Below are positions 3,276-50,574 of a stretch of DNA of 64,000 nucleotides, one piece after another; the first letter of the stretch is position 1, and every line of letters starts with the position of its first letter. The stretch spans positions 3,109 through 67,108 of the forward strand of contig JAGVYU010000061.1 in NCBI GenBank assembly GCA_018303105.1, read 5' to 3'. The translations under genes were made by a program, and so were the position numbers. The stretch is from Candidatus Woesearchaeota archaeon. Its GTDB lineage: Archaea; Nanobdellota; Nanobdellia; Woesearchaeales; JAGVYU01. Under the pieces are notes generated by a model. It made no database searches. It was not told where the DNA came from and worked only from the letters and a program-made list of their open reading frames with translations.

Positions 3276-4205
3276 CTACGTCCTAATTGAAAGCTGATTC
3301 TGCTCCGTTGTTTTCAATGATTCGCCCAATCCATATCCCATATTAAACGAGTATTGCTCGGCCACGGAGCTTAAGAAGTCTAGGAATGATACGGGGGGTT
3401 CGAGCTCCGCCACCGTTATCGTCTCATTCAACTGCTGCCTGAGATACTCCTCTGCGTCTCTCCTACCGCCAAGCGCGTCAATCAATCCAAGCTCTTCTGC
3501 CTCGATACCAAGGTAAATCCTGCCTGTAGCGAGCTCTTTGACCTGCTCCTTTGTCAGGTTTCGGTTCCTCGCAACCTCCTCGATGAAGAATATGTGGATA
3601 CGATCAAGCTCGCCTTGAAGAATTGCGCGCTCTTCTTTGGTTAGCGGTTTGAAGGGAATGCCCATGTCCTTATGTTCTCCTGAGATGAGCTGTTCATACG
3701 TGATATTCCAATCCCTGAGAAGGCCTGAAAACTCAAGATATGAGCCAATGACACCAATAGATCCTGTGACAGACATGCGGTTTGCGAAGATGTAATCTGT
3801 TGAGGAGGCAATCCAATATCCTCCAGATGCTCCGACTTCCCTGATATAACTTACGGTTGGCTTATTGAGCGCCTTCATTGCGGTTCCGATCTCATCACTC
3901 GCTACAGCGCTCCCTCCAGGGGAGTTTATCTCGATCATAATCGCTTTAATAGAGGGGTCTTCTTCCGCTGTCTCCAGAAGATCAATGATCGTGTCGGAGG
4001 CAGCAACATCCTCAGCGAAAAAACCGCTTTGCTCCCCAGAGACTATGGGCCCGTGAATTTTGATGAGCGCGACATTTCCTGATGCGCTCGGTGTCTCCGT
4101 TGCCGTGAGCAGGGCTATACAGCCCGCAAAAAAACTGCTCACGAGGAACAACCCGGCAAGGAATACTATCACAATCCAAAGTTTCGCGCGCGGTTCTGTT
4201 TTCAT
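3276..4205 (-). CDS. sppA: Signal peptide peptidase SppA (S49 family)
   Basis: It has an N-terminal TM anchor and the IEINSPGGSAVASDEI ... YIREVGASGGYWIASSTD blocks typical of the ClpP/crotonase-fold S49 peptidases. Confidence 0.8.
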   Translation of the reverse strand: MKTEPRAKLWIVIVFLAGLFLVSSFFAGCIALLTATETPSASGNVALIKIHGPIVSGEQSGFFAEDVAASDTIIDLLETAEEDPSIKAIMIEINSPGGSAVASDEIGTAMKALNKPTVSYIREVGASGGYWIASSTDYIFANRMSVTGSIGVIGSYLEFSGLLRDWNITYEQLISGEHKDMGIPFKPLTKEERAILQGELDRIHIFFIEEVARNRNLTKEQVKELATGRIYLGIEAEELGLIDALGGRRDAEEYLRQQLNETITVAELEPPVSFLDFLSSVAEQYSFNMGYGLGESLKTTEQNQLSIRT

Positions 4206-4228
4206 GATGGTTTTGGAAGTGCCTCTCT

Positions 4229-4738
4229 TTATAAAGATTGTTCAAAATTGTGCTGCTCAACAACATTCGCCTTCACGATGACATCTGAAAGGCGCTTGTT
4301 TTCTTTTGAAAACACGATCCATAAGGGATCAAGGAGCCAAAGGAGGATGAATGGGATGACGGGCAGCAAGAAAAGGTTTCTGGCAAGCACGCGCCAGAAC
4401 CCTAGGTCTCCATTCTCGGACACGACATGCAAGCCGAGCAGCATTTTCCCAATACTCTGGCCAAACCAATACTCAAGAAATGTGAAATAACAGATGGAAA
4501 GGATGCTGGCGTAGAGGAAGATGAGAAAAATAAGATTAGCGGCATACGGATTCTGCGTGAAGAGCTGGAGGTTATCGGACATCGTGCCGAGAGGCACAAT
4601 GCCCATGATGAGATTCCGCAAGGGAAAAAGGATGAGCGTGTCCAGAACGATAAGATCAACAAGGAACGCCAACCCCCTCCTGAGAAGATTAGCGGGAGCC
4701 TGGAATGATTTCCGCCGGGGAAGGTTTAATCGCATCAC
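4229..4738 (-). CDS. RDD-family membrane protein
   Basis: The RRGLAFLVDLIVLDTLILFP start and three TM segments fit the RDD family. Confidence 0.55.
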   Translation of the reverse strand: MMRLNLPRRKSFQAPANLLRRGLAFLVDLIVLDTLILFPLRNLIMGIVPLGTMSDNLQLFTQNPYAANLIFLIFLYASILSICYFTFLEYWFGQSIGKMLLGLHVVSENGDLGFWRVLARNLFLLPVIPFILLWLLDPLWIVFSKENKRLSDVIVKANVVEQHNFEQSL

Positions 4739-4789
4739 TCGGGTTGAGCGCAGGGGCTATTTAAAGATTGTGACATAAGTTAGTAAGAT

Positions 4790-5045
4790 TTGATTTGTAT
4801 TTCTTGCACGCCACCATGTCGGCGGCTTACGGCCATGCATCGCATGGCCTACTCGCCACCCCGGATGTCTAAGAAATCGAAGATTTCTGAGATCTTAAAA
4901 ATTGCAGAGCAATTTTTCAGAGGGCATCCCCCGGCTCGTCCAGCGCCGACGTGGCGTGCGGCGAGGGTGGGGATGCGCCGTCCGGGCTCCCGAGCAGGAC
5001 AGATTTACGAAGTAAATCTGGACGTCGCACCGCCACTGTCGGCGC
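4790..5045 (+). ncRNA. Candidate GC-rich structured non-coding RNA of unknown class, strand uncertain
   Basis: This is the highest-GC non-coding stretch in the window. It holds several perfect hairpins: GGCCATGC/GCATGGCC at 4831-4849, AGAAATC-GAA-GATTTCT at 4872-4888, AAAAATTGC-AGA-GCAATTTTT at 4896-4916, GCATCCCC...GGGGATGC at 4924-4976, and CAGATTTAC-GAA-GTAAATCTG at 5000-5020. The only ORFs here are Arg-rich shadow frames. Confidence 0.3.
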
Positions 5046-5113
5046 AAATATTGTTAACAACTGAAGATCATTGACCACAATCCTTATAAACTGCGTTCCG
5101 TTCCATAAACTCA

Positions 5114-5452
5114 ATGCAAAGAAAACCGTTCAGGCAACCTGAAGCGCCCGAGGCGCAGATTGCACGCATATTTTTACCGCGTGATAAGCAGGTATTCGGA
5201 CTTCTTGAGCAGAGGCTTGGCGCTTCGCGAATCAGAGTGCGCTGCCTTGATGGCAAGACTCGGATCTGCAGGATTCCAGGAAGGCTCAAGAGGAAGTTAT
5301 GGGTGCGTGAGGGCGATATCGTGATTGTGGAGCCCTGGGAGTTTGGGGGAGACGCGAAAGGCGATGTCGTGTACAAGTATACGCCCACGCAAGTGCAGTT
5401 TTTGAAGAATAAGGGCTATCTGAAACAGCTTGATGAGTTCTCAGAGTTTTAA
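5114..5452 (+). CDS. eif1a: Translation initiation factor aIF-1A
   Basis: GKTRICRIPGRLKRKLWVREGDIVIVEPWEF is the S1-like OB fold of eIF-1A. A TATA-like cttataaa box sits about 25 nt upstream, consistent with a leaderless mRNA. Confidence 0.9.
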   Translation: MQRKPFRQPEAPEAQIARIFLPRDKQVFGLLEQRLGASRIRVRCLDGKTRICRIPGRLKRKLWVREGDIVIVEPWEFGGDAKGDVVYKYTPTQVQFLKNKGYLKQLDEFSEF

Positions 5453-5512
5453 AACGTATCACTACTCGACCATAGAAATCCTTATATACGAGTTTTCAAC
5501 TTCAAAAACTGT

Positions 5513-5947
5513 ATGTGGGGACAAAAATTCATACAGTTTTCGATCATCTTATTCATAACATACGTCTGCACGATCCTGCTTATCTTCAAAACGTCAGGAT
5601 GGCTGTTTAAGATTGAGTTTTTCGTGTTTTTGCTGTTTATCCTCGTTAGCTTTTTGTTCATGCTGGGCTTATTTGTCGAAGAGCGCTGGGGCTATGTTGT
5701 TGGATTTATGCTGTTCCTGCTTGTGCTCGTCAATCTGCTTGTCCTGAAGTTTATGCTCGTGGACAATCTCGCGGTTTTTGCCATAGCGATGATTGCGGCA
5801 CTCATTGGCTTCATCATATGCATAGCAAATATGAAGAAAGAGCCATTGGAAGTTCCCGAGCCTGTACCGGAGCACAAGATTTTACCGTATGGCGTTGGGG
5901 GCAAGAAAGCCCCGGCTAAGAATCAAAGAAAGCGCAAGAAGCGCTAG
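5513..5947 (+). CDS. Small polytopic membrane protein with a basic C-terminal tail
   Basis: It has four hydrophobic segments and ends in KKAPAKNQRKRKKR. Confidence 0.4.
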   Translation: MWGQKFIQFSIILFITYVCTILLIFKTSGWLFKIEFFVFLLFILVSFLFMLGLFVEERWGYVVGFMLFLLVLVNLLVLKFMLVDNLAVFAIAMIAALIGFIICIANMKKEPLEVPEPVPEHKILPYGVGGKKAPAKNQRKRKKR

Positions 5948-7244: not shown

Positions 7245-7475
7245 GTGTTATACATGAATTATACTATGGCATTCGAAGTGAAAGTGAAAAAGTGGGGGAA
7301 CTCCCTGGGTGTTGTCATCCCCCGGGAAGTCATTGCAGAAAAACGATTGCGTGAGGGAGAGCGCATTGCACTTGAGGTCTTTAAAGTGGGAAACTTGAAG
7401 GACTTATTCGGAAAATATCCTGATCTTCCATCCGGGATGCATGTGAAGAGAATTGTAAGGAAAGGATGGAAATAA
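7245..7475 (+). CDS. AbrB/MazE/SpoVT-family antitoxin (VapB-like)
   Basis: VKKWGNSLGVVIPREV is a swapped-hairpin beta-barrel motif. It overlaps the PIN gene by 10 nt. Confidence 0.6.
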   Translation: MLYMNYTMAFEVKVKKWGNSLGVVIPREVIAEKRLREGERIALEVFKVGNLKDLFGKYPDLPSGMHVKRIVRKGWK

Positions 7476-7834
7476 TGAACACATTCTTTTTTGACACGTA
7501 TGCGCTAATAGAGATGTTGAAGGGAAATCCGAATTATGACGCATATACCAGCGCAATCCTGATCACGGGCAGATTAAACCTGATGGAACTCTACTATTAT
7601 TTTCTTCGTGAACGCAATGAGCCGAGAGGAAGAAAGGCCTTTTTAGACTTGCGCGCATTTTGTGTCGCGTTCTCAGATGATGAGCTCATGGAGGCGTGCC
7701 ACTTGCGACGTACAATAAAGAAGGCCTCTTATGTGGATGCGCTTGGCTATGTCCTTGCGAAGCGATGCCGGGCGCGCTTCCTGACAGGGGATCCTGCGTT
7801 CAAGGGTGTGGAAGATGTGGAGTTTGTGGTGTGA
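7466..7834 (+). CDS. PIN-domain ribonuclease (VapC-like toxin)
   Basis: The FFFDTYALIE start carries the first acidic residue of a PIN domain. Size and operon position with the AbrB-like gene fit VapC. Confidence 0.6.
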   Translation: MEIMNTFFFDTYALIEMLKGNPNYDAYTSAILITGRLNLMELYYYFLRERNEPRGRKAFLDLRAFCVAFSDDELMEACHLRRTIKKASYVDALGYVLAKRCRARFLTGDPAFKGVEDVEFVV

Positions 7835-7846
7835 GGGGTTGCATGT

Positions 7847-8236
7847 ATGAACGTTCATCCAGCTTACAGCTTTTTTGAGAAACATTGGAACGATCCAAAA
7901 CACGATATTCATTGTAGCGCTGTCCTCAAGGCCTGTTTGGGCATGATTCAGGATACGGATTTGAATCCTGAGGTTTTTATCGTTGCTGCCTGGATTCATG
8001 ATATGGGCAAATTAAGGGATAAGGAAAACCACCACGTTGAGAGCATGCATTATCTTGATCTCTTTATGCAAGAGTATCCGCAATTCCGTGGGATTTATGA
8101 TACCGTGAAAGATTGCATCATTCACCATCGCACTCATGGAACGCCTCAAATACTCTATGGTCAGATTTTCCAAGTCGCGGACAAAGTTGCGCTTGAGAAT
8201 AAGGAATGGAAGGCGTTTAAGAAAGCGCAGAAGTGA
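7847..8236 (+). CDS. HD-domain phosphohydrolase
   Basis: H..H...D is spread through the sequence, including AAWIHDMGK (the HD motif). Confidence 0.6.
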   Translation: MNVHPAYSFFEKHWNDPKHDIHCSAVLKACLGMIQDTDLNPEVFIVAAWIHDMGKLRDKENHHVESMHYLDLFMQEYPQFRGIYDTVKDCIIHHRTHGTPQILYGQIFQVADKVALENKEWKAFKKAQK

Positions 8237-9289: not shown

Positions 9290-10570
9290 TCAATTACAGG
9301 TGCCCGGTAATCCGGCAAATGTGTCACAATCATTGCTTGCACATTCGCTGTAGTAATAGCAGGATACTCCCCCGCAGAGCCCACAATCAGGATTGTTAGT
9401 TGGGGATATTGGATTGCTAGGATTATAACAGACACCAGAGCAAGTTGCCGTATCCACCGCCCCTTCAATAATCCCCTGAAACTCTTTCTTGCAATTGTGC
9501 AAAATTTCTTTTTTAATTTTGTATCCTATATCCTCTCCTGCATCAAGAAGCTGCCCTGCGTTGCCGTAAAAATTCCAAACCAAAAGCGGATCGTCTTGCT
9601 TAATTATCAGATCATTCTCTCCTGCAAAAGTTCCTTCAACGATTCTATTATCTGGGGCGAGATAAATACTATTTCTAGCAGTCGGAATAATAGCCGCATC
9701 ATTTGAGAAGAAAAACCGGTCACTTCCAATCTCATCACTCAATTGCTCATTCAACGCACTCAACGCACATTTCGGTATTTTTTCCCAATATTTGAGTCTT
9801 GTAAGGGTTCCTTCAGGGTCTATCTTCACGCGCACCGTTGTCTCTCCCGTTGTTTCATCGTATTCAAACGTTCTCTCTATTTTAACTCTGTCCTGTTCAT
9901 CAAAGATCTTATCGCATTCCGGTCCAAGTTCAGAATCTGATATTAATCTAAGGGGAACATCTCGCTTTGCTGCCATTATCTCCCTTACTATTTCACAAAA
10001 ATCCTTTTTCGTCAATTCAACATTCACCTCATCAATGAATGTGCAGTCATAGAGACTATTCTCTGACTCATCCGTTTGTCTAAATATGGCAAACTGCCCT
10101 TTGCCTTCAATCTTAGCTTGTAACCTTCCTTCATGCACGGCATAGCATTCAAAGTATGGCCAGGAGATGTCAATCTCGCCAATGTCAAAACTGCTCACAA
10201 TGGCGCCTTTCCTCATCATGAACACATCATCACCCATGCCAGACTCAATATTATCCTGAATAAGAGGATACTGCGCAAAAGAAGATGAAATCTCTTTCTT
10301 AGCGTCAATAAGATACACTTTATCCACGCCGCACGGCACCGTATACGTTTTAATCTGCTGATCACCGCGCTTTAAACCAACAACACGTGTATCATGCTTC
10401 AAATCCCCGGAAAACACCTGCAATTCTGTTTTACACCCGGCATTCTTGAAATCATAATACATCTTAAACCCAAAAACAATGATCAAGCCAACTATGACTA
10501 AGACAATAATAAACGCGAACTGTTCGCCTTCGATTTGCGCTTTTTTCAATTTGATAATTTTTCTTATCAT
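9290..10570 (-). CDS. Membrane-anchored extracellular protein with a Cys-rich C-terminus
   Basis: An N-terminal TM segment (FAFIIVLVIVGLIIVFGF) is followed by a large ectodomain that ends in a Cys cluster (CGLCGGVSCYYYSECASNDCD). Confidence 0.4.
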   Translation of the reverse strand: MIRKIIKLKKAQIEGEQFAFIIVLVIVGLIIVFGFKMYYDFKNAGCKTELQVFSGDLKHDTRVVGLKRGDQQIKTYTVPCGVDKVYLIDAKKEISSSFAQYPLIQDNIESGMGDDVFMMRKGAIVSSFDIGEIDISWPYFECYAVHEGRLQAKIEGKGQFAIFRQTDESENSLYDCTFIDEVNVELTKKDFCEIVREIMAAKRDVPLRLISDSELGPECDKIFDEQDRVKIERTFEYDETTGETTVRVKIDPEGTLTRLKYWEKIPKCALSALNEQLSDEIGSDRFFFSNDAAIIPTARNSIYLAPDNRIVEGTFAGENDLIIKQDDPLLVWNFYGNAGQLLDAGEDIGYKIKKEILHNCKKEFQGIIEGAVDTATCSGVCYNPSNPISPTNNPDCGLCGGVSCYYYSECASNDCDTFAGLPGTCN

Positions 10571-10606
10571 GTGATATCTTTTGTTATCAGTTGATACTTT
10601 TTATTA

Positions 10607-11683
10607 TCACTTTTTACTTAGGGTTATTTCCCTTAGCAATCTTCCAAACTTCCGATACCCTGAGAATTTATTGAAATGCCCTGCACCTTTGATAACGGTA
10701 ACAGATGCTTCGAGCTTTTTAGCGAGCATCTCAGCTTTTGCCAGGGGAACATACGGATCATTATTCGAGTGAATTATGGTAAAATGAGCACAGTGTTTTC
10801 TGATGTTATCCCAGTTGAACGACTTTGTGACAAAGGATCTGTTTACAGCGTCAAACTTGTTTCTTAACAATCCCGTAAACCCTGAAACAAAATACGCAGA
10901 CTTTACTTTTTTACGCTCAAGCACGTCAAGCAAAAACGCGCAGCCTAAACTATGGCCTATGACAATCGAATCTGGTTTTATCTTCTTCTCGTACTTTCTA
11001 AACTTTCTTCTCCACGTCTGCAGCGACTGTTTTGGGGGCTTCGGAAGTTTAGGGACATAGACACGATACCCTAAACGCTCAAGCTCTCCGCGGAGCCACG
11101 GATACCAGTTCTCCCCGGGACTGCCATAGGATCCGTGAATAATGAAAACACGCTGCGCATTTCTCTTCAGCCTGCTCTTGATACGGCCGGGAATCCTTTT
11201 GATCCTTTGCGGGATCTCCTGAACCGCCTCGCTTTTCCTGAAGTGCCATAATAAACCGAGCGCGCCTATGACGATCGCGCTGTCCGCGATATTAAACGTC
11301 GGCCAATGGTCATTCATGAGGAAAAAATCAAAAAAATCGGTCACATGCTGAAACGCAAACCGATCAATCATGTTGCCAATCGTGCCTCCGAGAATAAGTG
11401 CGGTTGCGAGCAGTGTTGTCCTTTCCTTTATCGCCTCATCAAAGTAATACAAGATAAAACCCAGGACTATTACTGAGATCCACGCGAGCATCAATGTCCA
11501 TTCCTTGAATAAGCCAAATCCTGCTCCCGTATTCTGCACATACCATAATGAGAAAAAGCCGTCAATAATAGGCATTGTCTGCCCAGGAATCAGAGAAGCA
11601 CGGACAACATGCTTCGTCCACTGATCAACGATCAAAATTAATAATGCAATTCCAAAGAATTGGAAGCCGCGATAGTCTCTCAT
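10607..11683 (-). CDS. lspA: Fusion of lipoprotein signal peptidase II (LspA) with a YdeN/RBBP9-type serine hydrolase
   Basis: Residues 1-160 read FQFFGIALLILIVDQWTKHVVRASLIPGQTMPIIDGFFSLWYVQNTGAGFGLF and NIADSAIVIGALGLL, the LspA signature blocks. The C-terminal 190 aa read VFIIHGSYGSPGENWYPWL...VIGHSLGCAF...GAGHFN, a Ser-Asp-His alpha/beta hydrolase. It is a single uninterrupted ORF. Confidence 0.7.
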   Translation of the reverse strand: MRDYRGFQFFGIALLILIVDQWTKHVVRASLIPGQTMPIIDGFFSLWYVQNTGAGFGLFKEWTLMLAWISVIVLGFILYYFDEAIKERTTLLATALILGGTIGNMIDRFAFQHVTDFFDFFLMNDHWPTFNIADSAIVIGALGLLWHFRKSEAVQEIPQRIKRIPGRIKSRLKRNAQRVFIIHGSYGSPGENWYPWLRGELERLGYRVYVPKLPKPPKQSLQTWRRKFRKYEKKIKPDSIVIGHSLGCAFLLDVLERKKVKSAYFVSGFTGLLRNKFDAVNRSFVTKSFNWDNIRKHCAHFTIIHSNNDPYVPLAKAEMLAKKLEASVTVIKGAGHFNKFSGYRKFGRLLREITLSKK

Positions 11684-11811
11684 CAGCCTATAAAGAACTC
11701 AGCGGTTTAAATATGTTTCTTGTCAGTGCCTTCCATAGCATAGCTTCTGCCCTGTTATAGCAGCTCACACTCTCACGTTGCTCAACACAAGAATTTATAA
11801 ATGCGAAGAGG

Positions 11812-12483
11812 ATGTGCTTACGATTTATGAATTTGTACTCTAAACTTTTTTTGTTTGGACAATTTGGATGCACGACCATACCCGCTACCGAGCCTACAGG
11901 ACAAGCGATGATGGACTCTGACAAATGTTCCTCATGGGTTCGTAACTATTTTAGGCCATTTACAAACGAGGATCTTCTCGATCTTGTTGAGGATTATCCG
12001 AATAACCCCCACATCCAACGCTTGAAGGAAGAAGGCCAGCCGAAAACCGGGCCGGGCATTGTTGAACAAGCGTATTGCGAGCTTGCTGCACGCCACAAGG
12101 GCATACGACTGGCTGCCCCCTTCTATCGAGACGATGCTCATAATACAGAAGTTGACGCACTGGATGAGCTCATCGGAGGAGTCTCTGGTTTTAAGCACAG
12201 AGGCCTTACCGCAATGGACAATTTTACAGGCACAACAGTAACAGCAGCTGGAATCGCATGGATCGTTTGCTGTGGGATGCTCAAAGGCCTGGACGGTATG
12301 CTTCCTGAGCTCGGATCATTTGAGCCAGCGTTTCACTGGGTTCAGAATTATGCGCCTGTTTTTTTCACACTCAGCCTCGCTCCCGTCTATGGCATGTTAA
12401 CGCATATGTTCAGAAGACATGTCAGTCCTGACGCCCTAGTCCGCGCGCGGACTTTAGATGACCATTTTGGGCAGGTTTATTGA
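11812..12483 (+). CDS. Hypothetical protein. The true start is probably an internal Met.
   Basis: Long ORF with membrane-like segments and no recognisable motif. Confidence 0.3.
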   Translation: MCLRFMNLYSKLFLFGQFGCTTIPATEPTGQAMMDSDKCSSWVRNYFRPFTNEDLLDLVEDYPNNPHIQRLKEEGQPKTGPGIVEQAYCELAARHKGIRLAAPFYRDDAHNTEVDALDELIGGVSGFKHRGLTAMDNFTGTTVTAAGIAWIVCCGMLKGLDGMLPELGSFEPAFHWVQNYAPVFFTLSLAPVYGMLTHMFRRHVSPDALVRARTLDDHFGQVY

Positions 12484-12499
12484 ATTTCTCAGGGTAAGA

Positions 12500-12913
12500 T
12501 TACCACCGTCTTGAATAACTCGGCTGCTGCTCCCGCATCGCAATTCTTTCAATGTTCATAAGCCTTTGATTAATGCTTTCCAAACTTGCCTGCAGCGCAT
12601 CCATCTTTGAGGATAGAATCTCAATGTTTTTTCCAATGATGACCGTATCTTGATTAGGATATGCTTGTTGTTGATAAGCGGGCTGAGCGAAACTAGGCTG
12701 CAATTGAGGCGTCATGAACGGCCTAGGCTCCTGGAATGGCTCAATGCGGTCAAGACCCAAACCAGACTGCGTGTTCTGGCCATAACGCTGCTGGCCAAAC
12801 GGATCATTCACGCCGGGAATACTTGTGTCTGTTGGATTCAAATCCGTCGGAAGCTCAGGAAGCCCTGAATCCTTCTTCCAGAACATCAGCTTGTCCATGA
12901 AACCCATGACCAC
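12500..12913 (-). CDS. Hypothetical Q/P-rich protein with a C-terminal coiled coil
   Basis: ORF with a low-complexity N-terminus and a heptad-like C-terminus (ILSSKMDALQASLESINQRLMNIERI). Confidence 0.3.
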   Translation of the reverse strand: MVMGFMDKLMFWKKDSGLPELPTDLNPTDTSIPGVNDPFGQQRYGQNTQSGLGLDRIEPFQEPRPFMTPQLQPSFAQPAYQQQAYPNQDTVIIGKNIEILSSKMDALQASLESINQRLMNIERIAMREQQPSYSRRW

Positions 12914-13233
12914 ACCTCTTTTTCAATATAGCTACGGAAACCACTATTTAAAGGTTACGAGCGAAGTTAAGATGAATGAATCGTTTGTTAGAAGGCAACA
13001 ACAAGAATGGCTTCGGACGACCTCATTGCATTCGGCCTCCTCGGGACTCCGGAGGTTATGGAAATCGCAAATTTCCAGAACTTCTGGAAACCCTTCAGGT
13101 TTCCATAAGAGCCAACCCTCCCCTCGGCCTCGCCTACGGCGCCAGAACTGGAGTTGAAGTCCGCCGCCTGCAACCGGCGCCGCGGTGACCACATTTAGAG
13201 GGTTTTGTAGTCATCTCTATAGATAGCAAATCC

Positions 13234-13692
13234 ATGAAATCGATAATGAGAGTGTTAGTATTACAAACATATAAGGAGTATTTAGCATTATTTGTTAGTA
13301 TCATTAACACGTTATCACTACTAACCATAAAGCTTAAATATTACCCCATGGTTATTATAGCTAACATGACCTCAAAGCAGCACATTCTCACATTCAAGCG
13401 CTCTGCTGATGCAGTATACGCTATGGGGGACTTTACAAGCGCCACGATTCTGTACTTTAAAACGCTCTTTGCTCTCCATGATTATCTCTTGCTCGAGAAA
13501 ATTGGATATGCTCCTAAAGATCACACAGAACGATTCAGGCTCCTGCAACAAGAGTTTCCGGAACTCTATGCCGAGTTAGACGCTGAATTCAACACGTACA
13601 GAAGTACATACACAAGAATTGCCTCCAAGGAGACATGCAATCGTATAAAAAAGATGATTGAACATGCCATCACTACTCACCACATTGCATAA
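13234..13692 (+). CDS. HEPN-like helical protein, upstream partner of an MNT
   Basis: It is alpha-helical and overlaps the start of the downstream nucleotidyltransferase ORF, so the arrangement looks like an operon. Confidence 0.35.
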   Translation: MKSIMRVLVLQTYKEYLALFVSIINTLSLLTIKLKYYPMVIIANMTSKQHILTFKRSADAVYAMGDFTSATILYFKTLFALHDYLLLEKIGYAPKDHTERFRLLQQEFPELYAELDAEFNTYRSTYTRIASKETCNRIKKMIEHAITTHHIA

Positions 13693-14905: not shown

Positions 14906-15298
14906 ATGTGGGGTTTAGTGGGAAAGATATACCTGATCATTGTGCTTCTTTTTGTGCTGTCGTGCGCCCCTCTAAGCAGAGAATACGTTAACAATTGTGA
15001 ACAATCCGGGGGAGATTATACTTCTGGTTTCTCTGAAACCAAAGGCCAATATTATTTTTGTGAATGTCCAGATGGCAAATACGAATCAGGAGGGATCTGT
15101 CACGATATCGCTGCTCAACAGGTGGAACTCTGCGAAAAAGTATCTAACAAATTTGTAAACTGTGCGGTTGATGGCAGCGAGTGCATATGCACATTTATAG
15201 ATTCTGGAACAGTCTCTTTTTTACCAATTGGAGTATTGGAAACTTCAAATTGTGAATGCTTTGATGGAGGATGTGGATGCGGACCAAACCTAAACTAA
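14906..15298 (+). CDS. Small Cys-rich secreted lipoprotein
   Basis: A signal peptide ends in the lipobox LFVLSC. The protein has 16 Cys and overlaps the start of the giant gene. Confidence 0.4.
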   Translation: MWGLVGKIYLIIVLLFVLSCAPLSREYVNNCEQSGGDYTSGFSETKGQYYFCECPDGKYESGGICHDIAAQQVELCEKVSNKFVNCAVDGSECICTFIDSGTVSFLPIGVLETSNCECFDGGCGCGPNLN

Positions 15299-18200
15299 TG
15301 GCGTTGCTGAATATATCCGTCTTTTTTCTCTTCATCCTTGTCCAAGTAGCTTATGCTGATTTAGAAGGATATGTGTATAAAGTTAAAGACGGACCAGAAG
15401 GATACTACGCAAGTTCTTCATTTTCTTCAGGAACGCTTCATTTTTTCTTCGATAACGCTGAGGAAATTTCAACTCAACTAAATGAAGATGGCTCTTTTGA
15501 GATCGATCCGGGTGACCTGTTTTGTTGGGAGGGGTGTAATATTTACCCTGCAATCACCCTAAAAGAAATTCGCGTATATGAGGGGGAAGAGCCCCTAAGT
15601 TCATTATTAATCCCTTATTCAAATATAAATCAGTCATACAATGCTATCAATCCCGTTTTTATAAATTTATTTTTAGATAACAAAGAGATTAATGACGACG
15701 TGATAACCTGGGATTCATCGTTTATAAGTGCTGAAGACCTAATTGGAATACAATCCTCGGAGGAATCTATTTATTTTGTGTCCTGGAATGGAACAATAGT
15801 TATCCCAGAGGAGGAGGAATATTTTTTTAGTTTTGAGGGGATGGGAAGTGTAAACTTTTGGATTGATGGTCAACAGGGGATATTCAAAGGTAAGGTGGGG
15901 GAGGGAATAAAACTTACTCCGGGAGAACACGAACTAAGAGCAGAATATTTTATACTCAATAGTACTTCATCTCCGAATATACTTTGGCGATACAACGAGG
16001 TTTCTGGGTTTGTCCCTTTGGAAAATCTTCGAATTACTTCAGGAGAATCCAAGAAAGTAATGAAGGACTCGCGTTTCCAGACGTTATCATTATCTGATTA
16101 TGGACTTTCTGAGATTTATCCATCTTGGAGCTGGTGGGGATATGTTACGTACAATACGCAAAAAAGACCATTACTTTTGATACATGGTTGGTCTAATAAT
16201 AATCTCGGTCCAGCGCAGACTAATCTCTGGACACAGTGGGGGACATTGCCGGGGGGCTTGGAGAATTTGGGAGATGAAATACTTGAAGTGGTTTATAACC
16301 CTGCAAATTTGGACAATCGGAAAAATGCGGGAATGCTGAATTTAGTCCTGTCCCAAATAAAGAATTACGGCTATAATTTTGAAAAAATAGATGTTGCCGC
16401 TCATAGCATGGGCGGATTAGCTGTCAGGGGGTATATACAAAACATGGGATTAACATCGAGTGGGAACTCTGTTTCATACGGATCTAACATTAGGAAAGCG
16501 ATATTTATTGGTAGTCCACTCCAGGGAACATATTTAGCAAATCTGATAAATGATGGATATAACTTCCCAGGTTCCTGTGATGCTTTGGATTTTTTCTTCA
16601 ACCTCAATGTAGTATCAGAGGCTACCAAGAACATGGAAATTGGTAGTGATTACTTATGGAACTTGAATACTGCATCTTTCAACAGCAATGTTGATTACTT
16701 AACGATCGGAGGATTTAATCAGTATGTTGCCTGCTTATATAATAGTAATATGGTAGAGGATGGCGTTGTGCCTATGAGCAGCTCCAACTTATTAGGGTAT
16801 AACGTCCCACATATTACACTAGATAGAGTCCACACAACAATCGTGGACAATCCGCAGGTGCTCGGAGTTATCGATGATTTTCTAAATAATCGAGGAACAA
16901 ATGAAATTAAATCCAACTTATATTATTCAGGAGAGTATTATATTGATCCAAGCTCCCATTATTATTTGGCACTAGGAGGTATTACCATTTCATTCACGGA
17001 CAAAAATCGGGTGACCGGAGTTCAAATTTATAACCCGACTACCGGATGGAAGAATTTATACCAAAATTCAAGAACCAAACGGTGGTTTTATCTTAATCCA
17101 GTTCCGCCAAATTTCAATTTTAACTCGTTTACAACTGAACTTCCTGTAGGGACTTACAACATTTACTATAATGAAGGGTCGGGTTTCTTTTATTCGGGTC
17201 AAAATGCATATATAGACTATGACAGTACAACTTATGTAACAATAAATAACTTGGATTCTGACAACGACGGAATAAAAGATGTAAACGATAACTGTCCTTA
17301 TAGTTATAACCCAAATCAAGCCAATTATGATGGAGATTCTGCCGGAGATAACTGTGACCCAGATGATGATAATGATGGGTTCAATGATAATCAGGATGTT
17401 TGCCAGTTTCAATATGGAACGTGTAGGGGCTGTCCGTTAAATCCAAATTGGACATTAAATTCAACTTGGTCTGCATGCACTGTCCAAGATACACAATTCA
17501 AAAATTATTATGACACAAATATGTGCGGGCAGACACCTCCACCTCCAGTATCGCAAGCTTGCAATTTCTGCAATTACTCACCAACTAACACCAGCTGGTC
17601 CTTTTTTGCTAACGTAAGCTTATGCCGCACCAACGACACTCAGCTTATCAATGTGAGCAGAAAAGAATACGATTCAAATTACGCATCCTGCTATCAAATT
17701 ACGGGGATTTCATTCGACCTTTGGAACAATGGGCAGAATAAGACCCATTACACAACAAATCAAACATCCTGTGATTACTGCTATCCAATACCCCTGAACT
17801 CCTCATGGGGCGACTGGTACAATATCACTGTATGTAGAGCGAATAAGACTAAAGTCCAGGAGAGGGAAAAAACCGAGTTTGACTCCGCCTACAGCATGTG
17901 CTATGCTCTTACACAGAATCCATTAGATAAATGGAATAATGGGAACAACAAAACGCACTATCAGCAGACAACGATACCCTGTTGTGATCCTATCCTTACA
18001 AATACATCGCCCAGTCAGTGGACAAACGTCTCCTGCCTAATCAATGATACTATGAATCAAACTCGGTTCAAGATAGAGTATGATTCTAATAGTTGCGGTA
18101 CGGTCCAAAACAGAACAATTATTGAATACCAACAAATAGAAAAATGCGACTTCTGCAAACCAAATCCTATAAACACGAGCTGGAGTCCATGGCAAAACGC

Positions 18201-31242: not shown

Positions 31243-31623
31243 CTATTCAACGAGAACTGCGTTAATCGTTCCATGCTGGCCCGGACGGGAAGTCACTCTG
31301 GCTTTGCCAAGCTCAGTATTAATAATCGCGCCACGAGTCATGATGTTTCTTCGCACGAAAAATGAGTTCGCCGGATTTTCGACGACGCTGATGATTTTCG
31401 CCTTCGTATATTTCTTGGATTTCGCATTAAACACGTTTGCAACGTCTGTCGCGAGGAGCTTCACTTTGCGGTTGCCGCCCATGCCGCGAATGTTGCGAAC
31501 GTTGCGCGATGCCGTGAGGGTATTCGCGGGAAGGCTTCCTTTTTCATATCTGCGCTTTTTCCTAGCGGCGATATAGCGAGATCCCGACGGCTTCAAGCGC
31601 GATCTGTTTTGTGTAACGACCAT
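31243..31623 (-). CDS. rps8e: 30S ribosomal protein S8e
   Basis: MVVTQNRSRLKPSGSRY...ENPANSFFVRRNIMTRGAIINTELGKARVTSRPGQHG matches S8e. The start is taken at the internal Met at 31621-31623, not at the track's start codon. Confidence 0.85.
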   Translation of the reverse strand: MVVTQNRSRLKPSGSRYIAARKKRRYEKGSLPANTLTASRNVRNIRGMGGNRKVKLLATDVANVFNAKSKKYTKAKIISVVENPANSFFVRRNIMTRGAIINTELGKARVTSRPGQHGTINAVLVE

Positions 31624-35328: not shown

Positions 35329-35499
35329 ATGAGCAAAGGAACAGCGTCCATGGGTGTTAAGTCTGGCAAGAAGAATCATATCTATTGCAGACGCTGTGGG
35401 AGAAAGACGTATCACCTTACTCGAAAGCGCTGCTCAAGCTGCGGGTATGGAAAGAGTGCCCGAATCAGAGCATACACGTGGGCTAAGAAGAAGCATTAG
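35329..35499 (+). CDS. rpl37e: 50S ribosomal protein L37e
   Basis: [56 protein letters not shown] is a C4 zinc ribbon typical of L37e. This frame was not listed in the track because of length. Confidence 0.85.
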
Positions 35500-36196
35500 C
35501 GCGTTCTACGCAAAACGATTTTGGCTCGGATTCCTTGATGAGATCACAGGCTGATTCATTCTGCTGGAGCCGGGCGATTCTCGAGATGCATGTCACCCGC
35601 AAGCCGAAATCCTCAATCGTGAGGCATCCTGACGTATTCTGCGTCTTTGTATAAACACGAAATTTACAGCCTTGTGCCTCATATGAATTATCGATGAATG
35701 AGCAGATGGAATCCGTTGTCGTGTTGACTGCAACTTTGTTATAACATTCATTGCGGTCTACGCCTTCATCGACCTCATGGCAGAGCTCTATGTTATTTGT
35801 CGCAATGCCAATATTCTTAAAGCATACATCCGACCAGTATGAGTTCGTGAGGTCATAACAATCATTCCCTGCAAGCTGCTCCTGAGCAACCCCGGCGAAG
35901 CAAAAATTCCTGCGCTTGTCATCCACAACAGATGCACATATCGACTTGTTCATCGTCTGAACGCCTATCTCCGCAGTGCACTGATCCCTGAATTTTTGAT
36001 CCGTCACTTGCGCACAGAGCTCAAGGGAGTGTGCCGAGACCGCGGTGTCAGCATAACAGTTCTGCCTATCCGTGTCTGAAGAGAATTGTTTGCACGGATC
36101 AGGTGTGCACGCTACAAGGAGCGCGAGCATCCCAAAGAGTAATAGTAACCGCATACAGCTGCGGAAAAAAACGAGTTTATAAAAGTTATGGAACAT
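35483..36196 (-). CDS. Cys-rich secreted lipoprotein
   Basis: The signal peptide [16 protein letters not shown] ends in a lipobox, and the protein has about 20 Cys. The true start is probably the internal MRLLL. Confidence 0.5.
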
Positions 36197-45242: not shown

Positions 45243-45983
45243 GTGCTCAAAACCCCTAAAAAGGAGGTTTCTCATATGAAAACAGGACTATGGATACTGT
45301 GTGTACTTACATTGTTTATTGTGGCATGCGCGCCAACACCGCCTGAAGCGCCGCCCGCTCCAGAACCCGCGGCTCCACAGGAACAGGTTACAGAGCCTGT
45401 AACACCCGCCCCGGAACCTACTAAGGAGATCGACTCCCCAACACGGGAATTCCTTGCCAAACATGATAAAGTGACGAGTTATAGCTACGGATTCGGCGAG
45501 CTCAACCAGCGTGACAAGATTAACGTAAAAGGTGACTTCATACGCATTGATCTCAGCGAGCGCAGAGGCAAGAATGATGAGGAGCGCTATGATGTTGTTT
45601 TCCTCGACGTGAAGGCGAAAACAGCGAAGGGAACGTGCGAAGCGAGCATCTGTGAGCCGAATTATTACAAAACGTATGTCGAGGCCGTCTATGGAGCGCA
45701 TGACCTAGAAAAGCTGCCATTGGATTACTTGGGAGATATCGCATATGCGGAGCTGGGCAAGAACACGCAGCTTCTTGAGAATAGAAAAACACAGGAAGTC
45801 CTTGTCGAGATGAAGGATGGCAGCACAGGAACGATGTGGCTGGACGAGTTTTATGGCTTCCCGTTCCAGATCGAGCTGACAAAAAACGACAAGAAAACAA
45901 CGATAACGTTCTATGATGTAGCCATAAACAGCCTCAACGACGATGACGTGAAGGTGCCTTCAAGCTTTACGCTGCGCCAATGA
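45243..45983 (+). CDS. Secreted lipoprotein, hypothetical
   Basis: The signal peptide ends in the lipobox LFIVAC, and a Pro/Glu-rich linker follows. Confidence 0.5.
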   Translation: MLKTPKKEVSHMKTGLWILCVLTLFIVACAPTPPEAPPAPEPAAPQEQVTEPVTPAPEPTKEIDSPTREFLAKHDKVTSYSYGFGELNQRDKINVKGDFIRIDLSERRGKNDEERYDVVFLDVKAKTAKGTCEASICEPNYYKTYVEAVYGAHDLEKLPLDYLGDIAYAELGKNTQLLENRKTQEVLVEMKDGSTGTMWLDEFYGFPFQIELTKNDKKTTITFYDVAINSLNDDDVKVPSSFTLRQ

Positions 45984-50088: not shown

Positions 50089-50574
50089 CTAAATAACCCT
50101 AATAATCAAATTAAAATCTTCCCGTAATTGCTCATCTTCAATGCTGACATCTATGACCTCATACGTTCCTTTGGTTTCAAACGTGTATGACCAATTAGCT
50201 CCGGAACGGACTGCTGCGGAAGAGAATCTGTCCTTCGTGTTTTTACGATTCCAGCCGATGAGCGAATGCCCCTGCTGCGTGAGATCATTGTTTATGAATT
50301 CAAGCGTTTCTCCTCTGGGGATGGTAATATTGTTGGGTAGAAAACCAAGCTCATCGATTAGGATTTGGGGATTCTTCGGCTCCTCAACAACGGGAGGTTC
50401 TTCGATTGGTTCTTCCTCCTCAGCTTCTGGCCCCTCAACAATGGGCTCAGGCGTTTCTTCTACAGGAATTTCTTCAATGGGGACTTCAGGCTCTTGAACA
50501 ACGACTTGCTGGGGAAATGCTGGAGCGCATGCTACGAGAAGCACAATGCACACAAGGATTGCTGCTATTCTCAT
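50089..50574 (-). CDS. Cupredoxin-like secreted lipoprotein (paralogue of the 45980..46576 protein)
   Basis: The signal peptide MRIAAILVCIVLLVAC ends in a lipobox. A PE-rich linker follows, then ITIPRGETLEFINND...WSYTFETKGTYEVID. The start is taken at the internal Met at 50574. Confidence 0.5.
   Translation of the reverse strand: MRIAAILVCIVLLVACAPAFPQQVVVQEPEVPIEEIPVEETPEPIVEGPEAEEEEPIEEPPVVEEPKNPQILIDELGFLPNNITIPRGETLEFINNDLTQQGHSLIGWNRKNTKDRFSSAAVRSGANWSYTFETKGTYEVIDVSIEDEQLREDFNLIIRVI

What the first reader, a model, noticed from the sequence alone, without database searches (positions are those of the whole stretch)
10607..11683. LspA (signal peptidase II) fused to a YdeN/RBBP9-type serine hydrolase in an archaeon with several lipobox proteins
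A single 358-aa ORF has a complete LspA membrane domain (FQFFGIALLILIVDQW... NIADSAIVIGALGLL) followed by an alpha/beta hydrolase with a GHSLG nucleophile elbow.

At least four secreted proteins in this window end their signal peptides in a lipobox: LFVLSC (14906), LLVAC (35483), LFIVAC (45243) and LLVAC (50089). Bacterial-type lipoprotein processing enzymes are uncommon in archaea. This fusion suggests a coupled signal-peptide cleavage and deacylation or esterase step. It could be a variant lipoprotein-maturation route.
Basis: partly seen in the sequence, partly recalled or inferred. Interest (0 to 1): 0.6.

Follow-up and report, generated by a model that had tools for sequence, protein, structure and literature searches.

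The report
Archaeal LspA fused to serine hydrolase
A groundwater DPANN archaeon (Woesearchaeota) has a real, selection-maintained gene joining a bacterial-type lipoprotein signal peptidase to a serine hydrolase that sits inside the cell; the fusion is confined to one lineage, but it shows that Woesearchaeota carry the bacterial Lgt/LspA enzymes that recent papers say archaea lack.

Summary
ORF 10607-11683 (-), 358 aa, is a complete LspA (Peptidase_A8, aa 12-147, both catalytic Asp) joined by a 29-aa basic linker to a complete YdeN/RBBP9-type serine hydrolase (PF06821, Ser245/Asp309/His336).

- **Not an artefact.** The identical gene is on contigs from six samples. A 90%-diverged sister contig keeps the whole ORF, with dN/dS about 0.09 in both halves.
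- **Archaeal.** The contig carries S8e, L35Ae, RpoL, aIF-1A and Gins51. NCBI names it Candidatus Woesearchaeota.
- **Lipobox proteins.** All four are real.
- **Interpretation only partly right.**
  - LspA's termini are cytoplasmic and the linker is strongly basic. The hydrolase therefore lies on the opposite face of the membrane from the LspA active site and the lipid anchor, so coupled deacylation is unlikely.
  - The fusion occurs in one 50%-identity cluster out of 1.84 billion.
  - Relatives have standalone LspA at the same syntenic locus, and standalone hydrolases elsewhere.
- **LspA is common here.** It is widespread in Woesearchaeota/Nanoarchaeota. One Woesearchaeote has a bona fide Lgt 4.3 kb from LspA. 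Literature up to 2026 states that no such archaeal homologues are reported.
- **Hydrolase function.** The substrate is unknown. My best guess is aminopeptidase-type trimming of the cytoplasmic ends of signal peptides.

The parts
10607..11683 (-). Whole fusion ORF, 358 aa plus stop (NCBI MBS3143077.1).
   Evidence: The identical 1077-nt gene is found in six assemblies. dN/dS against the sister contig L007 is 0.092.
11240..11683 (-). LspA (signal peptidase II, Peptidase_A8) membrane domain, aa 1-148, with four TM helices.
   Evidence: Pfam E 9e-37; TIGR00077 scores 117 bits against a cutoff of 74. A single alignment stretch covers aa 9-149 against 5dir/9emz/6ryo. Fourteen of the conserved LspA residues checked (D20, K24, N51, G53, G100, N104, D107, R108, V114, D116, F130, N131, A133, D134) are invariant in the 4-sequence alignment A2.
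11336..11338 (-). Codon of catalytic Asp116, equivalent to D124 of P. aeruginosa LspA.
   Evidence: Alignment to 9emz/5dir; position; invariant.
11282..11284 (-). Codon of catalytic Asp134, equivalent to D143 of P. aeruginosa LspA.
11153..11239 (-). Basic linker, aa 149-177 (RKSEAVQEIPQRIKRIPGRIKSRLKRNAQ): 10 K/R and 2 D/E, with no hydrophobic segment.
   Evidence: There are no nonsynonymous changes against L007. AF2 predicts helices here at pLDDT about 70.
10607..11152 (-). YdeN/RBBP9-type alpha/beta serine hydrolase domain (PF06821), aa 178-358, predicted to be cytoplasmic.
   Evidence: Pfam E 5e-22. AF2 pLDDT is 96-98. Foldseek finds 1uxo at TM 0.91 and RBBP9 at 0.87. Net charge is +23, against a mean of -0.4 (sd 7.1, max +18) for 47 standalone homologues.
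10949..10951 (-). Codon of nucleophile Ser245 (GHSLG).
   Evidence: Present in 49/49 family members in A3.
10757..10759 (-). Codon of triad Asp309 (NNDPYVP).
   Evidence: 49/49.
10676..10678 (-). Codon of triad His336 (GAGHF).
   Evidence: 49/49.
14906..15298 (+). Predicted lipoprotein substrate (…IIVLLFVLS|C). It overlaps the start of a 1598-aa secreted protein.
35483..36154 (-). Predicted lipoprotein substrate ([15 protein letters not shown]|C).
45276..45983 (+). Predicted lipoprotein substrate (MKTGLWILCVLTLFIVA|C).
50089..50574 (-). Predicted lipoprotein substrate (MRIAAILVCIVLLVA|C).
12500..12913 (-). Synteny anchor 'X': the gene that directly precedes standalone LspA in the related Woesearchaeota contigs L021 and L023.
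   Evidence: BLASTP gives 34-37% identity, E about 1e-21.
5513..5947 (+). Synteny anchor 'Y' (3-TM protein). It is convergent with, and directly downstream of, standalone LspA in L021 and L023. Here about 4.6 kb of other genes separates it from the fusion.
   Evidence: with gene tables.
3276..5452 (.). Conserved block SppA (3276-4205 -), RDD (4229-4738 -) and aIF-1A (5114-5452 +), which follows LspA in related Woesearchaeota.

Best explanation
This is a genuine, lineage-specific gene fusion in a Woesearchaeote. It yields a membrane enzyme with two catalytic centres on opposite faces of the membrane.

Shown:
- The N-terminal 148 residues are a complete bacterial-type LspA with the Asp116/Asp134 dyad.
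- The C-terminal 181 residues are a complete RBBP9/YdeN-type serine hydrolase with Ser245/Asp309/His336.
- Both halves and the linker are under strong purifying selection.
- Relatives carry standalone LspA at the same locus, so the fusion is derived.

Inferred with high confidence (about 0.85):
- The LspA half does its canonical job. At the outer face it cuts lipobox signal peptides before the +1 Cys of proteins such as the four found in this window.
- It acts within a bacterial-type Lgt/LspA pathway that Woesearchaeota possess.
- The hydrolase hangs in the cytoplasm on a basic linker and is pressed against the inner membrane surface. Supporting points are the 4-TM N-in/C-in topology, the positive-inside counts and the domain's exceptional +23 charge.
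- It therefore cannot deacylate or otherwise touch the lipid-modified cysteine.

Inferred with low confidence (about 0.3; this is my committed guess for the coupling):
- Like RBBP9, the hydrolase is an aminopeptidase-type enzyme for hydrophobic N-terminal residues.
- Tethered beside LspA, it trims the cytoplasm-exposed, unformylated N-termini of signal peptides that LspA leaves in the membrane, which helps clear them.
- If this is wrong, the fusion simply anchors a normally soluble DPANN housekeeping hydrolase to the membrane.
For: Domain identity and catalytic residues.

Reality of the fusion:
- The exact protein is on 8 contigs, and six assemblies have 0 nt differences.
- Sister contig L007 is colinear at 90% nt identity with an intact 358-aa ORF. 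dN/dS is 0.08 for LspA and 0.088 for the hydrolase, the linker has 0 nonsynonymous changes, and dS is 0.56.

Archaeal host.

Topology:
- The catalytic dyad lies at the outer surface and there are four TM helices (PMC6952399).
- K+R is 14 in inside segments against 1 outside.

Membrane apposition:
- The fused domain has net charge +23, against -0.4 +/- 7.1 for 47 standalone homologues.
- That is +12.7 per 100 aa, against +2.6 +/- 5.0 for 35 soluble proteins of the window.
- Other family members are tethered by 1-2 TM helices, with K/R-rich segments on the hydrolase side.

Derived, single-lineage fusion.

Bacterial-type pathway in the clade:
- The LspA profile's top hits that carry an organism name are 6 Woesearchaeota, 2 Nanoarchaeota and 1 Proteobacteria.
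- Lgt (TIGR00544, 203 bits against a cutoff of 119) lies 4.3 kb from LspA and aIF-1A in L022. The same linkage appears in the separately deposited metagenome contig L024.

Aminopeptidase idea:
- RBBP9 removes N-terminal Phe/Tyr/Trp/Leu/Met and needs a free alpha-amine (PMC8866121).
- Its pocket residues Y99/L103/E108/F140/L141 align with F269/L273/D278/Y311/V312.
- D278, Y311 and V312 are kept in 47, 47 and 45 of 49 homologues, and L273 is at least 90% conserved in A3. F269 conservation was not tallied.
Against: - No conserved LspA-hydrolase neighbourhood exists in three other DPANN genomes.
- The hydrolase domain is a promiscuous fusion partner: NUDIX, HD, methyltransferase and other alpha/beta hydrolases. 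A functional link to LspA therefore need not exist.
- RBBP9 prefers aromatic residues, whereas the signal peptides here start M-R/K/W. Trimming might stop after one residue.
- Similarity to RBBP9 is only about 24-27% identity, and YdeN's activity is unknown.
- Lgt was not found in the 64-kb window, and the rest of this genome could not be searched.
- The AF2 model of the second half of the LspA domain is poor, so topology rests on homology and charge bias.
- No experiment exists for any archaeal LspA.
Confidence: 0.6

Rival explanations
1. Tether only. The fusion has no mechanistic link to lipoprotein processing. A rearrangement downstream of lspA joined a housekeeping cytosolic hydrolase to the nearest membrane protein, and each half works independently. 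LspA serves merely as a 4-TM anchor.
For: - The fusion is limited to one cluster among 1.84 billion representatives.
- About 4.6 kb of unrelated genes (radical SAM, MazE/PIN, HD) lies at the same junction, which indicates a local rearrangement.
- There is no LspA near the standalone hydrolases in L017-L019.
- The domain is a promiscuous fusion partner.
- Other family members use plain TM helices as anchors.
Against: - The fusion has been maintained through dS 0.56 with dN/dS 0.09 and an unchanged linker.
- The domain's charge has shifted well beyond the family range, which suggests adaptation to the membrane-bound state.
- Neither point proves coupling to LspA.
Confidence: 0.4
2. The hydrolase is an esterase/deacylase that acts on the lipid-modified lipoprotein in concert with signal-peptide cleavage, giving a variant maturation route.
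For: - Alpha/beta hydrolases of this superfamily include esterases and lipases (Foldseek neighbours).
- The faint LIDHydrolase Pfam hit is below its cutoff.
- Fusion partners are often functionally linked.
Against: - The topology places the hydrolase in the cytoplasm, while the lipidated Cys and the LspA dyad are at the outer face.
- There is no TM segment or signal sequence between the domains.
- The closest homologues are soluble proteins of about 185 aa without signal peptides.
- The route would exist in only one lineage.
Confidence: 0.05
3. Inner-leaflet lipid enzyme. The tethered hydrolase is a lysophospholipase/thioesterase-type enzyme that remodels or scavenges lipids at the cytoplasmic face. 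This could matter for a lipid-auxotrophic DPANN cell that needs a diacylglyceryl donor for Lgt.
For: - The domain is pressed to the membrane by its charge.
- Membrane-tethered family members recur.
- Woesearchaeota are reported to lack key lipid-synthesis genes (PMC8421398).
Against: - The only biochemically defined family member is a peptidase, not a lipase, and its alpha-amine-binding acidic residue is conserved here.
- The domain is compact, with no lid or acyl-binding domain. The model is about 180 aa and superposes on YdeN/RBBP9.
Confidence: 0.12
4. Artefact: a frameshift or assembly chimera, or a bacterial contig mis-binned as archaeal.
For: - LspA is a typically bacterial gene.
- The closest genome-collection hit (L007) is labelled 'Methanosarcinales', which shows that labels in this clade are unreliable.
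Against: - The gene is identical in six assemblies from different samples.
- The ORF is intact in a sister contig that is 90% identical, with a purifying-selection signature.
- Archaeal ribosomal, transcription and translation genes flank it on the same contig.
- The syntenic LspA locus occurs in three other Woesearchaeota contigs.
Confidence: 0.02

Closest known systems
Bacterial lipoprotein signal peptidase LspA (MEROPS A8; P. aeruginosa 5DIR, S. aureus 6RYO)
   Same: - One alignment stretch covers all four TM helices.
- It has both catalytic aspartates and the 14 conserved active-site residues checked (G99 is also invariant).
- It scores above the TIGR00077 equivalog cutoff.
- Canonical lipobox substrates are encoded nearby.
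   Different: - The host is a DPANN archaeon.
- It carries a 210-residue C-terminal extension (basic linker plus hydrolase), whereas standalone archaeal and bacterial LspAs end about 22-30 residues after the FNxAD motif.
- The lipid on its substrates is unknown.
Standalone LspA of Woesearchaeota/Nanoarchaeota (e.g. MBW2983931.1, MFH1053521.1; P0066, P0144, P0150)
   Same: - 42-57% identity.
- Same syntenic locus, X-LspA-Y-aIF-1A-RDD-SppA.
   Different: - They are 145-178 aa with no hydrolase domain.
- They are annotated in GenBank but, as far as my searches show, not discussed in the literature.
YdeN (B. subtilis, 1UXO) and human RBBP9 (2QS9/7OEX), Pfam PF06821 Ser_hydrolase
   Same: - Same fold: TM 0.91 and 0.87.
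- Same Ser-Asp-His triad.
- RBBP9's hydrophobic cage and alpha-amine-binding acidic residue have conservative equivalents.
   Different: - Only about 24-27% identity.
- Fused to a membrane protease.
- Far more basic (+23).
- Activity untested.
Standalone DPANN/Patescibacteria serine hydrolases of about 185 aa (P0290-P0408)
   Same: - 50-58% identity to aa 175-358.
- All catalytic and pocket residues are shared.
   Different: - They are soluble with near-neutral net charge (mean -0.4) and are not next to LspA.
M. tuberculosis Ppm1 (Lnt domain fused to polyprenol-phosphate-mannose synthase). This analogy comes from my own knowledge and was not tested here.
   Same: A lipoprotein-maturation membrane enzyme carries a cytoplasmic catalytic domain with a different activity in one polypeptide.
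   Different: The enzymes differ on both sides, and in mycobacteria the two genes are adjacent in relatives, which argues for a functional link. No such adjacency is seen here.
AliA/AliB archaeal lipoprotein lipidation system (Haloferax volcanii; PMC12462473)
   Same: It serves the same class of lipobox substrates in archaea. Its downstream signal peptidase has not been identified.
   Different: - It has no sequence relation to LspA.
- Whether this Woesearchaeote has AliA could not be tested.
- A relative has a true Lgt instead of, or in addition to, AliA.

Membership tests
LspA / signal peptidase II (Peptidase_A8, TIGR00077) | Profile score above the curated family threshold over the full domain. 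| tested here: met
   PF01252 scores 126.8 bits (cutoff 25) over profile positions 1-139 of 142. TIGR00077 scores 117.4 bits (cutoff 73.95).
LspA / signal peptidase II (Peptidase_A8, TIGR00077) | Catalytic aspartate dyad plus the conserved active-site residues (D, K, N, G, G, N, D, R, V, D, F, N, A, D). | tested here: met
   D116 and D134 align to D124 and D143 of PaLspA. D20, K24, N51, G53, G99/G100, N104, D107, R108, V114, D116, F130, N131, A133 and D134 are all present and invariant in A2. The residue list comes from PMC6952399.
LspA / signal peptidase II (Peptidase_A8, TIGR00077) | Four TM helices with a beta-cradle on the outer face, and N- and C-termini in the cytoplasm. | tested here: inconclusive
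   The homology alignment spans all four helices, and positive-inside counts are 14 against 1. AF2 gives a confident H1 and two cradle strands (pLDDT 88-93), but residues 88-130 fall below 50 because MAFFT misaligned that half of the MSA.
LspA / signal peptidase II (Peptidase_A8, TIGR00077) | Globomycin-sensitive cleavage of lipid-modified prolipoprotein before the +1 Cys. | not testable with these tools
   This needs biochemistry or complementation.
Ser_hydrolase PF06821 (YdeN/RBBP9 family) | Profile score above the Pfam threshold. | tested here: met
   79 bits (cutoff 22), profile positions 2-164 of 172.
Ser_hydrolase PF06821 (YdeN/RBBP9 family) | Ser-Asp-His triad in a G-H-S-x-G elbow. | tested here: met
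   S245, D309 and H336 align to the YdeN and RBBP9 triads and are present in 49/49 homologues.
Ser_hydrolase PF06821 (YdeN/RBBP9 family) | Compact alpha/beta-hydrolase fold of about 180 aa, superposable on 1UXO/2QS9. | tested here: met
   AF2 pLDDT is 96-98. Foldseek gives TM(target) 0.91 with rmsd 1.8 A to 1uxo, and 0.87 to 2qs9.
Ser_hydrolase PF06821 (YdeN/RBBP9 family) | RBBP9-type aminopeptidase activity (free alpha-amine, hydrophobic P1). | not testable with these tools
   Only pocket conservation could be checked. F269/L273/D278/Y311/V312 correspond to Y99/L103/E108/F140/L141.
Complete bacterial-type lipoprotein pathway (Lgt + LspA, with or without Lnt) | Lipobox-bearing substrates. | tested here: met
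   Four canonical lipoprotein signal peptides occur in 64 kb.
Complete bacterial-type lipoprotein pathway (Lgt + LspA, with or without Lnt) | Lgt encoded in the same genome. | tested here: inconclusive
A related Woesearchaeote has Lgt (TIGR00544, 203 bits against a cutoff of 119) 4.3 kb from LspA, seen on two separately deposited contigs.
Complete bacterial-type lipoprotein pathway (Lgt + LspA, with or without Lnt) | Lnt or another N-acylating enzyme. | not tested
   No search was possible beyond the window.
Archaeal AliA/AliB lipidation system (arCOG02177/02178) | Presence of an AliA/AliB homologue. | not tested
   No AliA sequence or profile was available. The paper's supplements are not held. 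Two unassigned multi-TM proteins at 52157-55343 were not compared.

The most novel reading that the evidence does not exclude
Woesearchaeota (and other Nanoarchaeota-type DPANN) run a vertically maintained, bacterial-type Lgt/LspA lipoprotein pathway in an archaeal cell. They would then be the first archaea with an identifiable lipoprotein signal peptidase. In this lineage the peptidase would also have been extended into a two-sided enzyme, whose cytoplasmic RBBP9-like aminopeptidase domain degrades the signal peptide from its cytoplasmic N-terminus as LspA releases it. That would be a coupled cleavage-and-disposal machine not described in any domain.
Probability: 0.2. Interest if true: 0.7.

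Novelty: new variant of a known kind. Interest (0 to 1): 0.5.

Why it matters
There are two levels.

**The fusion itself.**
- It is a rare natural experiment. It places an orphan-family serine hydrolase at the cytoplasmic mouth of LspA; the family's only characterised member, RBBP9, is an aminopeptidase.
- This suggests a testable role in disposal of signal peptides, and it gives a handle on the function of a protein that is nearly ubiquitous in DPANN and Patescibacteria.

**The context, which matters more.**
- Here, bona fide LspA sits at a conserved locus between archaeal core genes in several Woesearchaeota contigs, and bona fide Lgt lies beside it in one.
- These genes are already annotated in GenBank, so this is a gap between databases and literature, not a new sequence discovery.
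- It still makes several questions directly testable with these genes by heterologous complementation:
  - Can bacterial-type enzymes lipidate and process proteins in an archaeal or host-derived membrane?
  - Which lipid is attached?
  - Did DPANN acquire the pathway from bacteria?

Tried and rejected
1. **Full-length word-index search.** The exhaustive representative search and the domain-wise searches superseded it.
2. **P0084 and P0058.** P0084 (358 aa, two stretches) looked like a reversed-order fusion, but Pfam shows it is a tandem LspA-LspA. P0058 is two hydrolase domains. Neither is an LspA-hydrolase fusion.
3. **AlphaFold2 on the whole protein, twice.** The hydrolase half is excellent. 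The LspA half is poor because MAFFT put residues 99-134 of the query in columns separate from the standalone LspAs. No coordinates or PAE are returned, so inter-domain geometry could not be assessed.
4. **Lgt in this organism.**
   - I found none in the window.
   - A metagenome scan seeded with the L022 Lgt returned 80 loci. Only L024, which is identical to L022, also carried LspA and aIF-1A. L025, L027 and L030 share L022's upstream neighbours.
   - Nothing could be tied to the window's genome.
5. **AliA/AliB comparison.** It was not possible because the supplements are not held.
6. **Literature searches.** Searches for LspA or Lgt in DPANN found nothing beyond the statements that none are known.
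7. **Conserved hydrolase-LspA neighbourhood.** Three DPANN genomes were checked and none has it.
8. **Other checks.** Rfam at gathering threshold returned nothing. A phylogeny to date the bacterial origin of the archaeal LspA was considered and dropped, because the protein is short and few sequences carry taxon labels.
Full report

Yes. The ORF listing shows one ATG-initiated ORF at 10607..11683 on the minus strand, 358 aa.

- Pfam finds Peptidase_A8 over aa 12-147 (E 9e-37) and Ser_hydrolase PF06821 over aa 180-347 (E 5e-22).
- NCBIfam's lspA equivalog TIGR00077 scores 117 bits against a cutoff of 74.
- Against PDB sequences, the N-terminal half matches LspA of P. aeruginosa and S. aureus, and the C-terminal half matches B. 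subtilis YdeN and human RBBP9.
- From the printed alignments, PaLspA D124 and D143 correspond to D116 and D134 here. The GHSLG serine is S245, with D309 and H336 completing the triad.

**2. Is it an artefact?**

No.

- The exact protein is on 8 contigs. In six assemblies from different samples the 1077-nt gene has 0 differences from the window.
- A sister contig, L007, is colinear with window 9353-13490 at 90% nucleotide identity and keeps the whole 358-aa ORF.
- Between the two, dN/dS is 0.092 overall: 0.08 for the LspA half, 0.088 for the hydrolase half, and no nonsynonymous change in the linker, at dS 0.56.
- All catalytic residues are unchanged.

**3. Which organism?**

The window encodes the following archaeal markers:

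| Marker | Coordinates |
|---|---|
| Ribosomal protein S8e | 31243-31623 |
| Ribosomal protein L35Ae | 50836-51093 |
| RNA polymerase subunit L | 62816-63094 |
| aIF-1A | 5114-5452 |
| Gins51 | 48685-49329 |
| PAC2 proteasome chaperone | 57000-57860 |
| XerA-type recombinase | 59138-59806 |

An exact-sequence look-up returns NCBI names 'Candidatus Woesearchaeota archaeon' for nine of the ten proteins queried. The fusion is MBS3143077.1, 'signal peptidase II', on a 74.6-kb contig. The host is a DPANN archaeon, and the gene lies between archaeal core genes on the same contig.

**4. Lipobox proteins**

A scripted scan of all six-frame ORFs of at least 60 aa (254 ORFs, 1285 candidate starts) looked for a basic n-region, a hydrophobic h-region and a lipobox Cys within 40 residues. 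Three have textbook L/I-V-A-C boxes and one has V-L-S-C.

**5. How common is the fusion?**

An exhaustive phmmer search was run against 1.84 billion representatives, which stand for about 15 billion proteins.

- It found exactly one other full-length match: P0001, 92% identical and in the same cluster. After that came only single-domain matches.
- Two multi-stretch candidates were checked and are not this architecture. P0084 is LspA-LspA, and P0058 is two hydrolases.
- A very divergent fusion scoring below about 119 bits cannot be excluded.

**6. Where do the two halves come from?**

*Hydrolase half.*
- It has about 300 relatives at E <= 1e-15. The 120 listed are 48-58% identical, almost all standalone proteins of about 185 aa.
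- Where named, they come from Woesearchaeota, Aenigmarchaeota, Nanoarchaeota, Nanohaloarchaea and Patescibacteria.
- In three DPANN genomes the standalone gene is not near any LspA.
- The domain is also found fused to NUDIX, HD, methyltransferase and other alpha/beta-hydrolase domains.
- It is occasionally found fused to one or two N-terminal TM helices.

*LspA half.*
- A profile of the four closest sequences retrieves a large family of 145-178-aa standalone LspAs.
- Among the top-120 hits that carry an organism name, 6 are Woesearchaeota, 2 Nanoarchaeota and 1 Proteobacteria.
- Three contigs show the same gene order: X - LspA - Y - aIF-1A - RDD - SppA (L021, L023), or LspA - aIF-1A (L022). 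L023 also carries S8e, S7, S12, L7Ae and RNA polymerase A, and L022 carries A-type ATPase genes.
- BLASTP identifies X as window 12500-12913 and Y as window 5513-5947.

In the window, about 4.6 kb lies between the fusion and Y. This block holds a radical-SAM gene, MazE/PIN, an HD protein and two unknown proteins. The standalone state is therefore ancestral, and the fusion arose with a local rearrangement downstream of lspA in this lineage.

**7. Bacterial-type Lgt in Woesearchaeota**

- On L022 (GCA_019322805.1), a 256-aa protein 4.3 kb upstream of LspA scores 203 bits against the TIGR00544 lgt equivalog (cutoff 119). NCBI names it prolipoprotein diacylglyceryl transferase (MBW2983926.1), five accessions before the LspA (MBW2983931.1).
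- A separately deposited metagenome contig, L024 (SMTZ1_10016812), reproduces Lgt, LspA and aIF-1A together.
- Three further Lgt loci share L022's upstream neighbours.
- No Lgt is present in the 64-kb window. The rest of this genome could not be searched.

**8. Topology and what it implies**

- LspA structures show four TM helices with the catalytic aspartates towards the outer membrane surface (PMC6952399). Both termini are cytoplasmic; this is established knowledge from the LspA structural and topology literature.
- Predicted inside segments (N-tail, loop 2, linker) hold 14 K/R. The outside loops hold 1. The 29-residue linker has 10 K/R and no hydrophobic stretch.
- The hydrolase is therefore cytoplasmic.
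- It is also unusually basic. Net charge is +23 (+25 in P0001), against -0.4 +/- 7.1 (maximum +18) for 47 standalone homologues. That is +12.7 per 100 aa, against +2.6 +/- 5.0 for 35 soluble proteins of the window, exceeded only by ribosomal protein S8e.
- I read this as adaptation to lying on an anionic membrane surface. This is an inference.

Consequence: the two active sites are on opposite faces.

**9. What might the hydrolase do?**

- The AF2 model of this half is very confident (pLDDT 96-98). It superposes on YdeN (TM 0.91) and RBBP9 (0.87).
- RBBP9 is the family's only member with a defined activity. It is a serine aminopeptidase that removes N-terminal Phe, Tyr, Trp, Leu/Ile or Met and requires a free alpha-amine (PMC8866121).
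- Its cage residues Y99, L103, F140 and L141 and its amine anchor E108 align with F269, L273, Y311, V312 and D278.
- D278, Y311 and V312 are conserved in 47, 47 and 45 of 49 DPANN-type homologues. L273 is at least 90% conserved in A3. F269 conservation was not tallied.
- After LspA cleavage, a lipoprotein signal peptide remains in the membrane with its unformylated (archaeal) N-terminus in the cytoplasm, directly beside the tethered domain.

My committed but low-confidence proposal (about 0.3) is N-terminal trimming and clearance of signal peptides. The main rival (about 0.4) is that the fusion merely anchors a housekeeping hydrolase, with no link to LspA. A lipid-directed activity at the inner leaflet is a third possibility (about 0.1).

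**10. Comparison with what is known, and novelty**

- Each domain is a clear member of a known family (see the membership table).
- The architecture appears unique to one lineage.
- The broader point may matter more than the fusion. [quoted passage not shown]
- My searches found no paper linking LspA or Lgt to DPANN.
- GenBank already annotates these genes in Woesearchaeota, and here they lie in conserved archaeal synteny. This is a gap between databases and literature, not a new sequence.

I rate the finding a new variant of a known kind, of moderate interest.

**11. Limits**

- No experiment exists for any of these proteins.
- The lipid attached in these cells is unknown.
- Lgt is unverified in this genome.
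- The LspA half of the AF2 models is unreliable because the MSA was misaligned.
- The bacterial origin of the archaeal LspA/Lgt is inferred from family distribution, not from a tree.

Noticed in passing
L022:4954-5724 (Lgt) and L022:10001-10456 (LspA); also L024:158-925 and L024:5205-5642: A Woesearchaeota contig encodes a bona fide Lgt (TIGR00544, 203 bits against a cutoff of 119; MBW2983926.1) 4.3 kb from LspA (MBW2983931.1). aIF-1A and A-type ATPase genes lie alongside. The linkage is reproduced on a separately deposited metagenome contig. Recent literature says no archaeal Lgt/Lsp homologues are known.
   Followed up: yes
window 3276-5947 and 10607-12913; L021, L023: Gene order is conserved in Woesearchaeota: X(137 aa) - LspA - Y(3-TM, convergent) - aIF-1A - RDD - SppA. 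LspA thus lies a few genes from the signal peptide peptidase SppA. In the window, about 4.6 kb (radical SAM, MazE/PIN, HD, two unknowns) is inserted between LspA and Y.
   Followed up: yes
L007 (CAZHJH010000114.1), whole 4168-bp contig: The record is labelled 'uncultured Methanosarcinales archaeon', but the contig is colinear with window 9353-13490 at 90% identity. It is therefore a sister strain of this Woesearchaeote. The cause is probably a mis-binned contig or a mislabelled MAG.
   Followed up: partly
window 9290-10570 (-): This gene starts 36 nt downstream of the fusion on the same strand (426 aa, no family match). Its N-terminus, MIRKIIKLKKAQIEGEQFAFIIVLVIVGLIIVF, resembles an archaeal class III (type IV pilin-like) signal peptide, and its C-terminus is Cys-rich. 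It is possibly co-transcribed with the fusion.
   Followed up: no
window 14906-20067 (+): A small lipobox protein (130 aa) overlaps by 28 nt the start of a 1598-aa secreted protein that has only weak or faint DUF7379/TSP_3/Big_13 hits.
   Followed up: no
window 45243-46576 (+): The lipobox protein (45276-45983) overlaps by 4 nt a 198-aa membrane protein with a weak cupredoxin (Copper-bind) hit. The arrangement recalls lipid-anchored halocyanins.
   Followed up: no
window 52157-53647 and 53685-55343 (+): Two adjacent proteins of about 500 aa each have some 6-7 N-terminal hydrophobic segments and a long C-terminal part. Neither has a Pfam or NCBIfam match. They were not compared with AliA/AliB, and whether they are paralogues was not tested.
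   Followed up: partly
window 36031-39610 (+): Two tandem multi-TM proteins have C-terminal TPR arrays. The second has a PMT_2 (dolichyl-phosphate-mannose protein mannosyltransferase-like) hit.
   Followed up: no
window 11168-11215 (-), aa 157-172 of the fusion: The linker contains an imperfect peptide repeat, IPQRIKR / IPGRIKS, with roughly 60% identity at DNA level. It may be a remnant of a small duplication that lengthened the linker.
   Followed up: no
P0147, P0076, P0069, P0062, P0119, P0064, P0073, P0003 (relatives of the hydrolase half): PF06821 hydrolases are tethered to membranes in other ways. P0076 and P0147 have a single TM helix after a Pro/Thr-rich extracellular region, and P0069 has a 2-TM hairpin. 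Others are fused to NUDIX, methyltransferase or HD domains. In P0062 the charge bias would place the hydrolase outside the cell.
   Followed up: partly
P0084 and P0045 (relatives of the LspA half): Other LspA architectures exist: a tandem LspA-LspA protein of 358 aa, and an LspA fused to prepilin-type N-methylation/T2SS-G domains.
   Followed up: no
window 40051-40134 (+): ARAGORN finds tRNA-Leu(CAG), yet the Rfam gathering-threshold scan of the whole window returned no match at all, not even to the tRNA family.
   Followed up: no
window 7466-8236 (+) and upstream: A MazE-like/PIN toxin-antitoxin pair and an HD-domain protein lie inside the block inserted next to the fusion. An HD + PF06821 fusion (P0003) exists elsewhere.
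   Followed up: no
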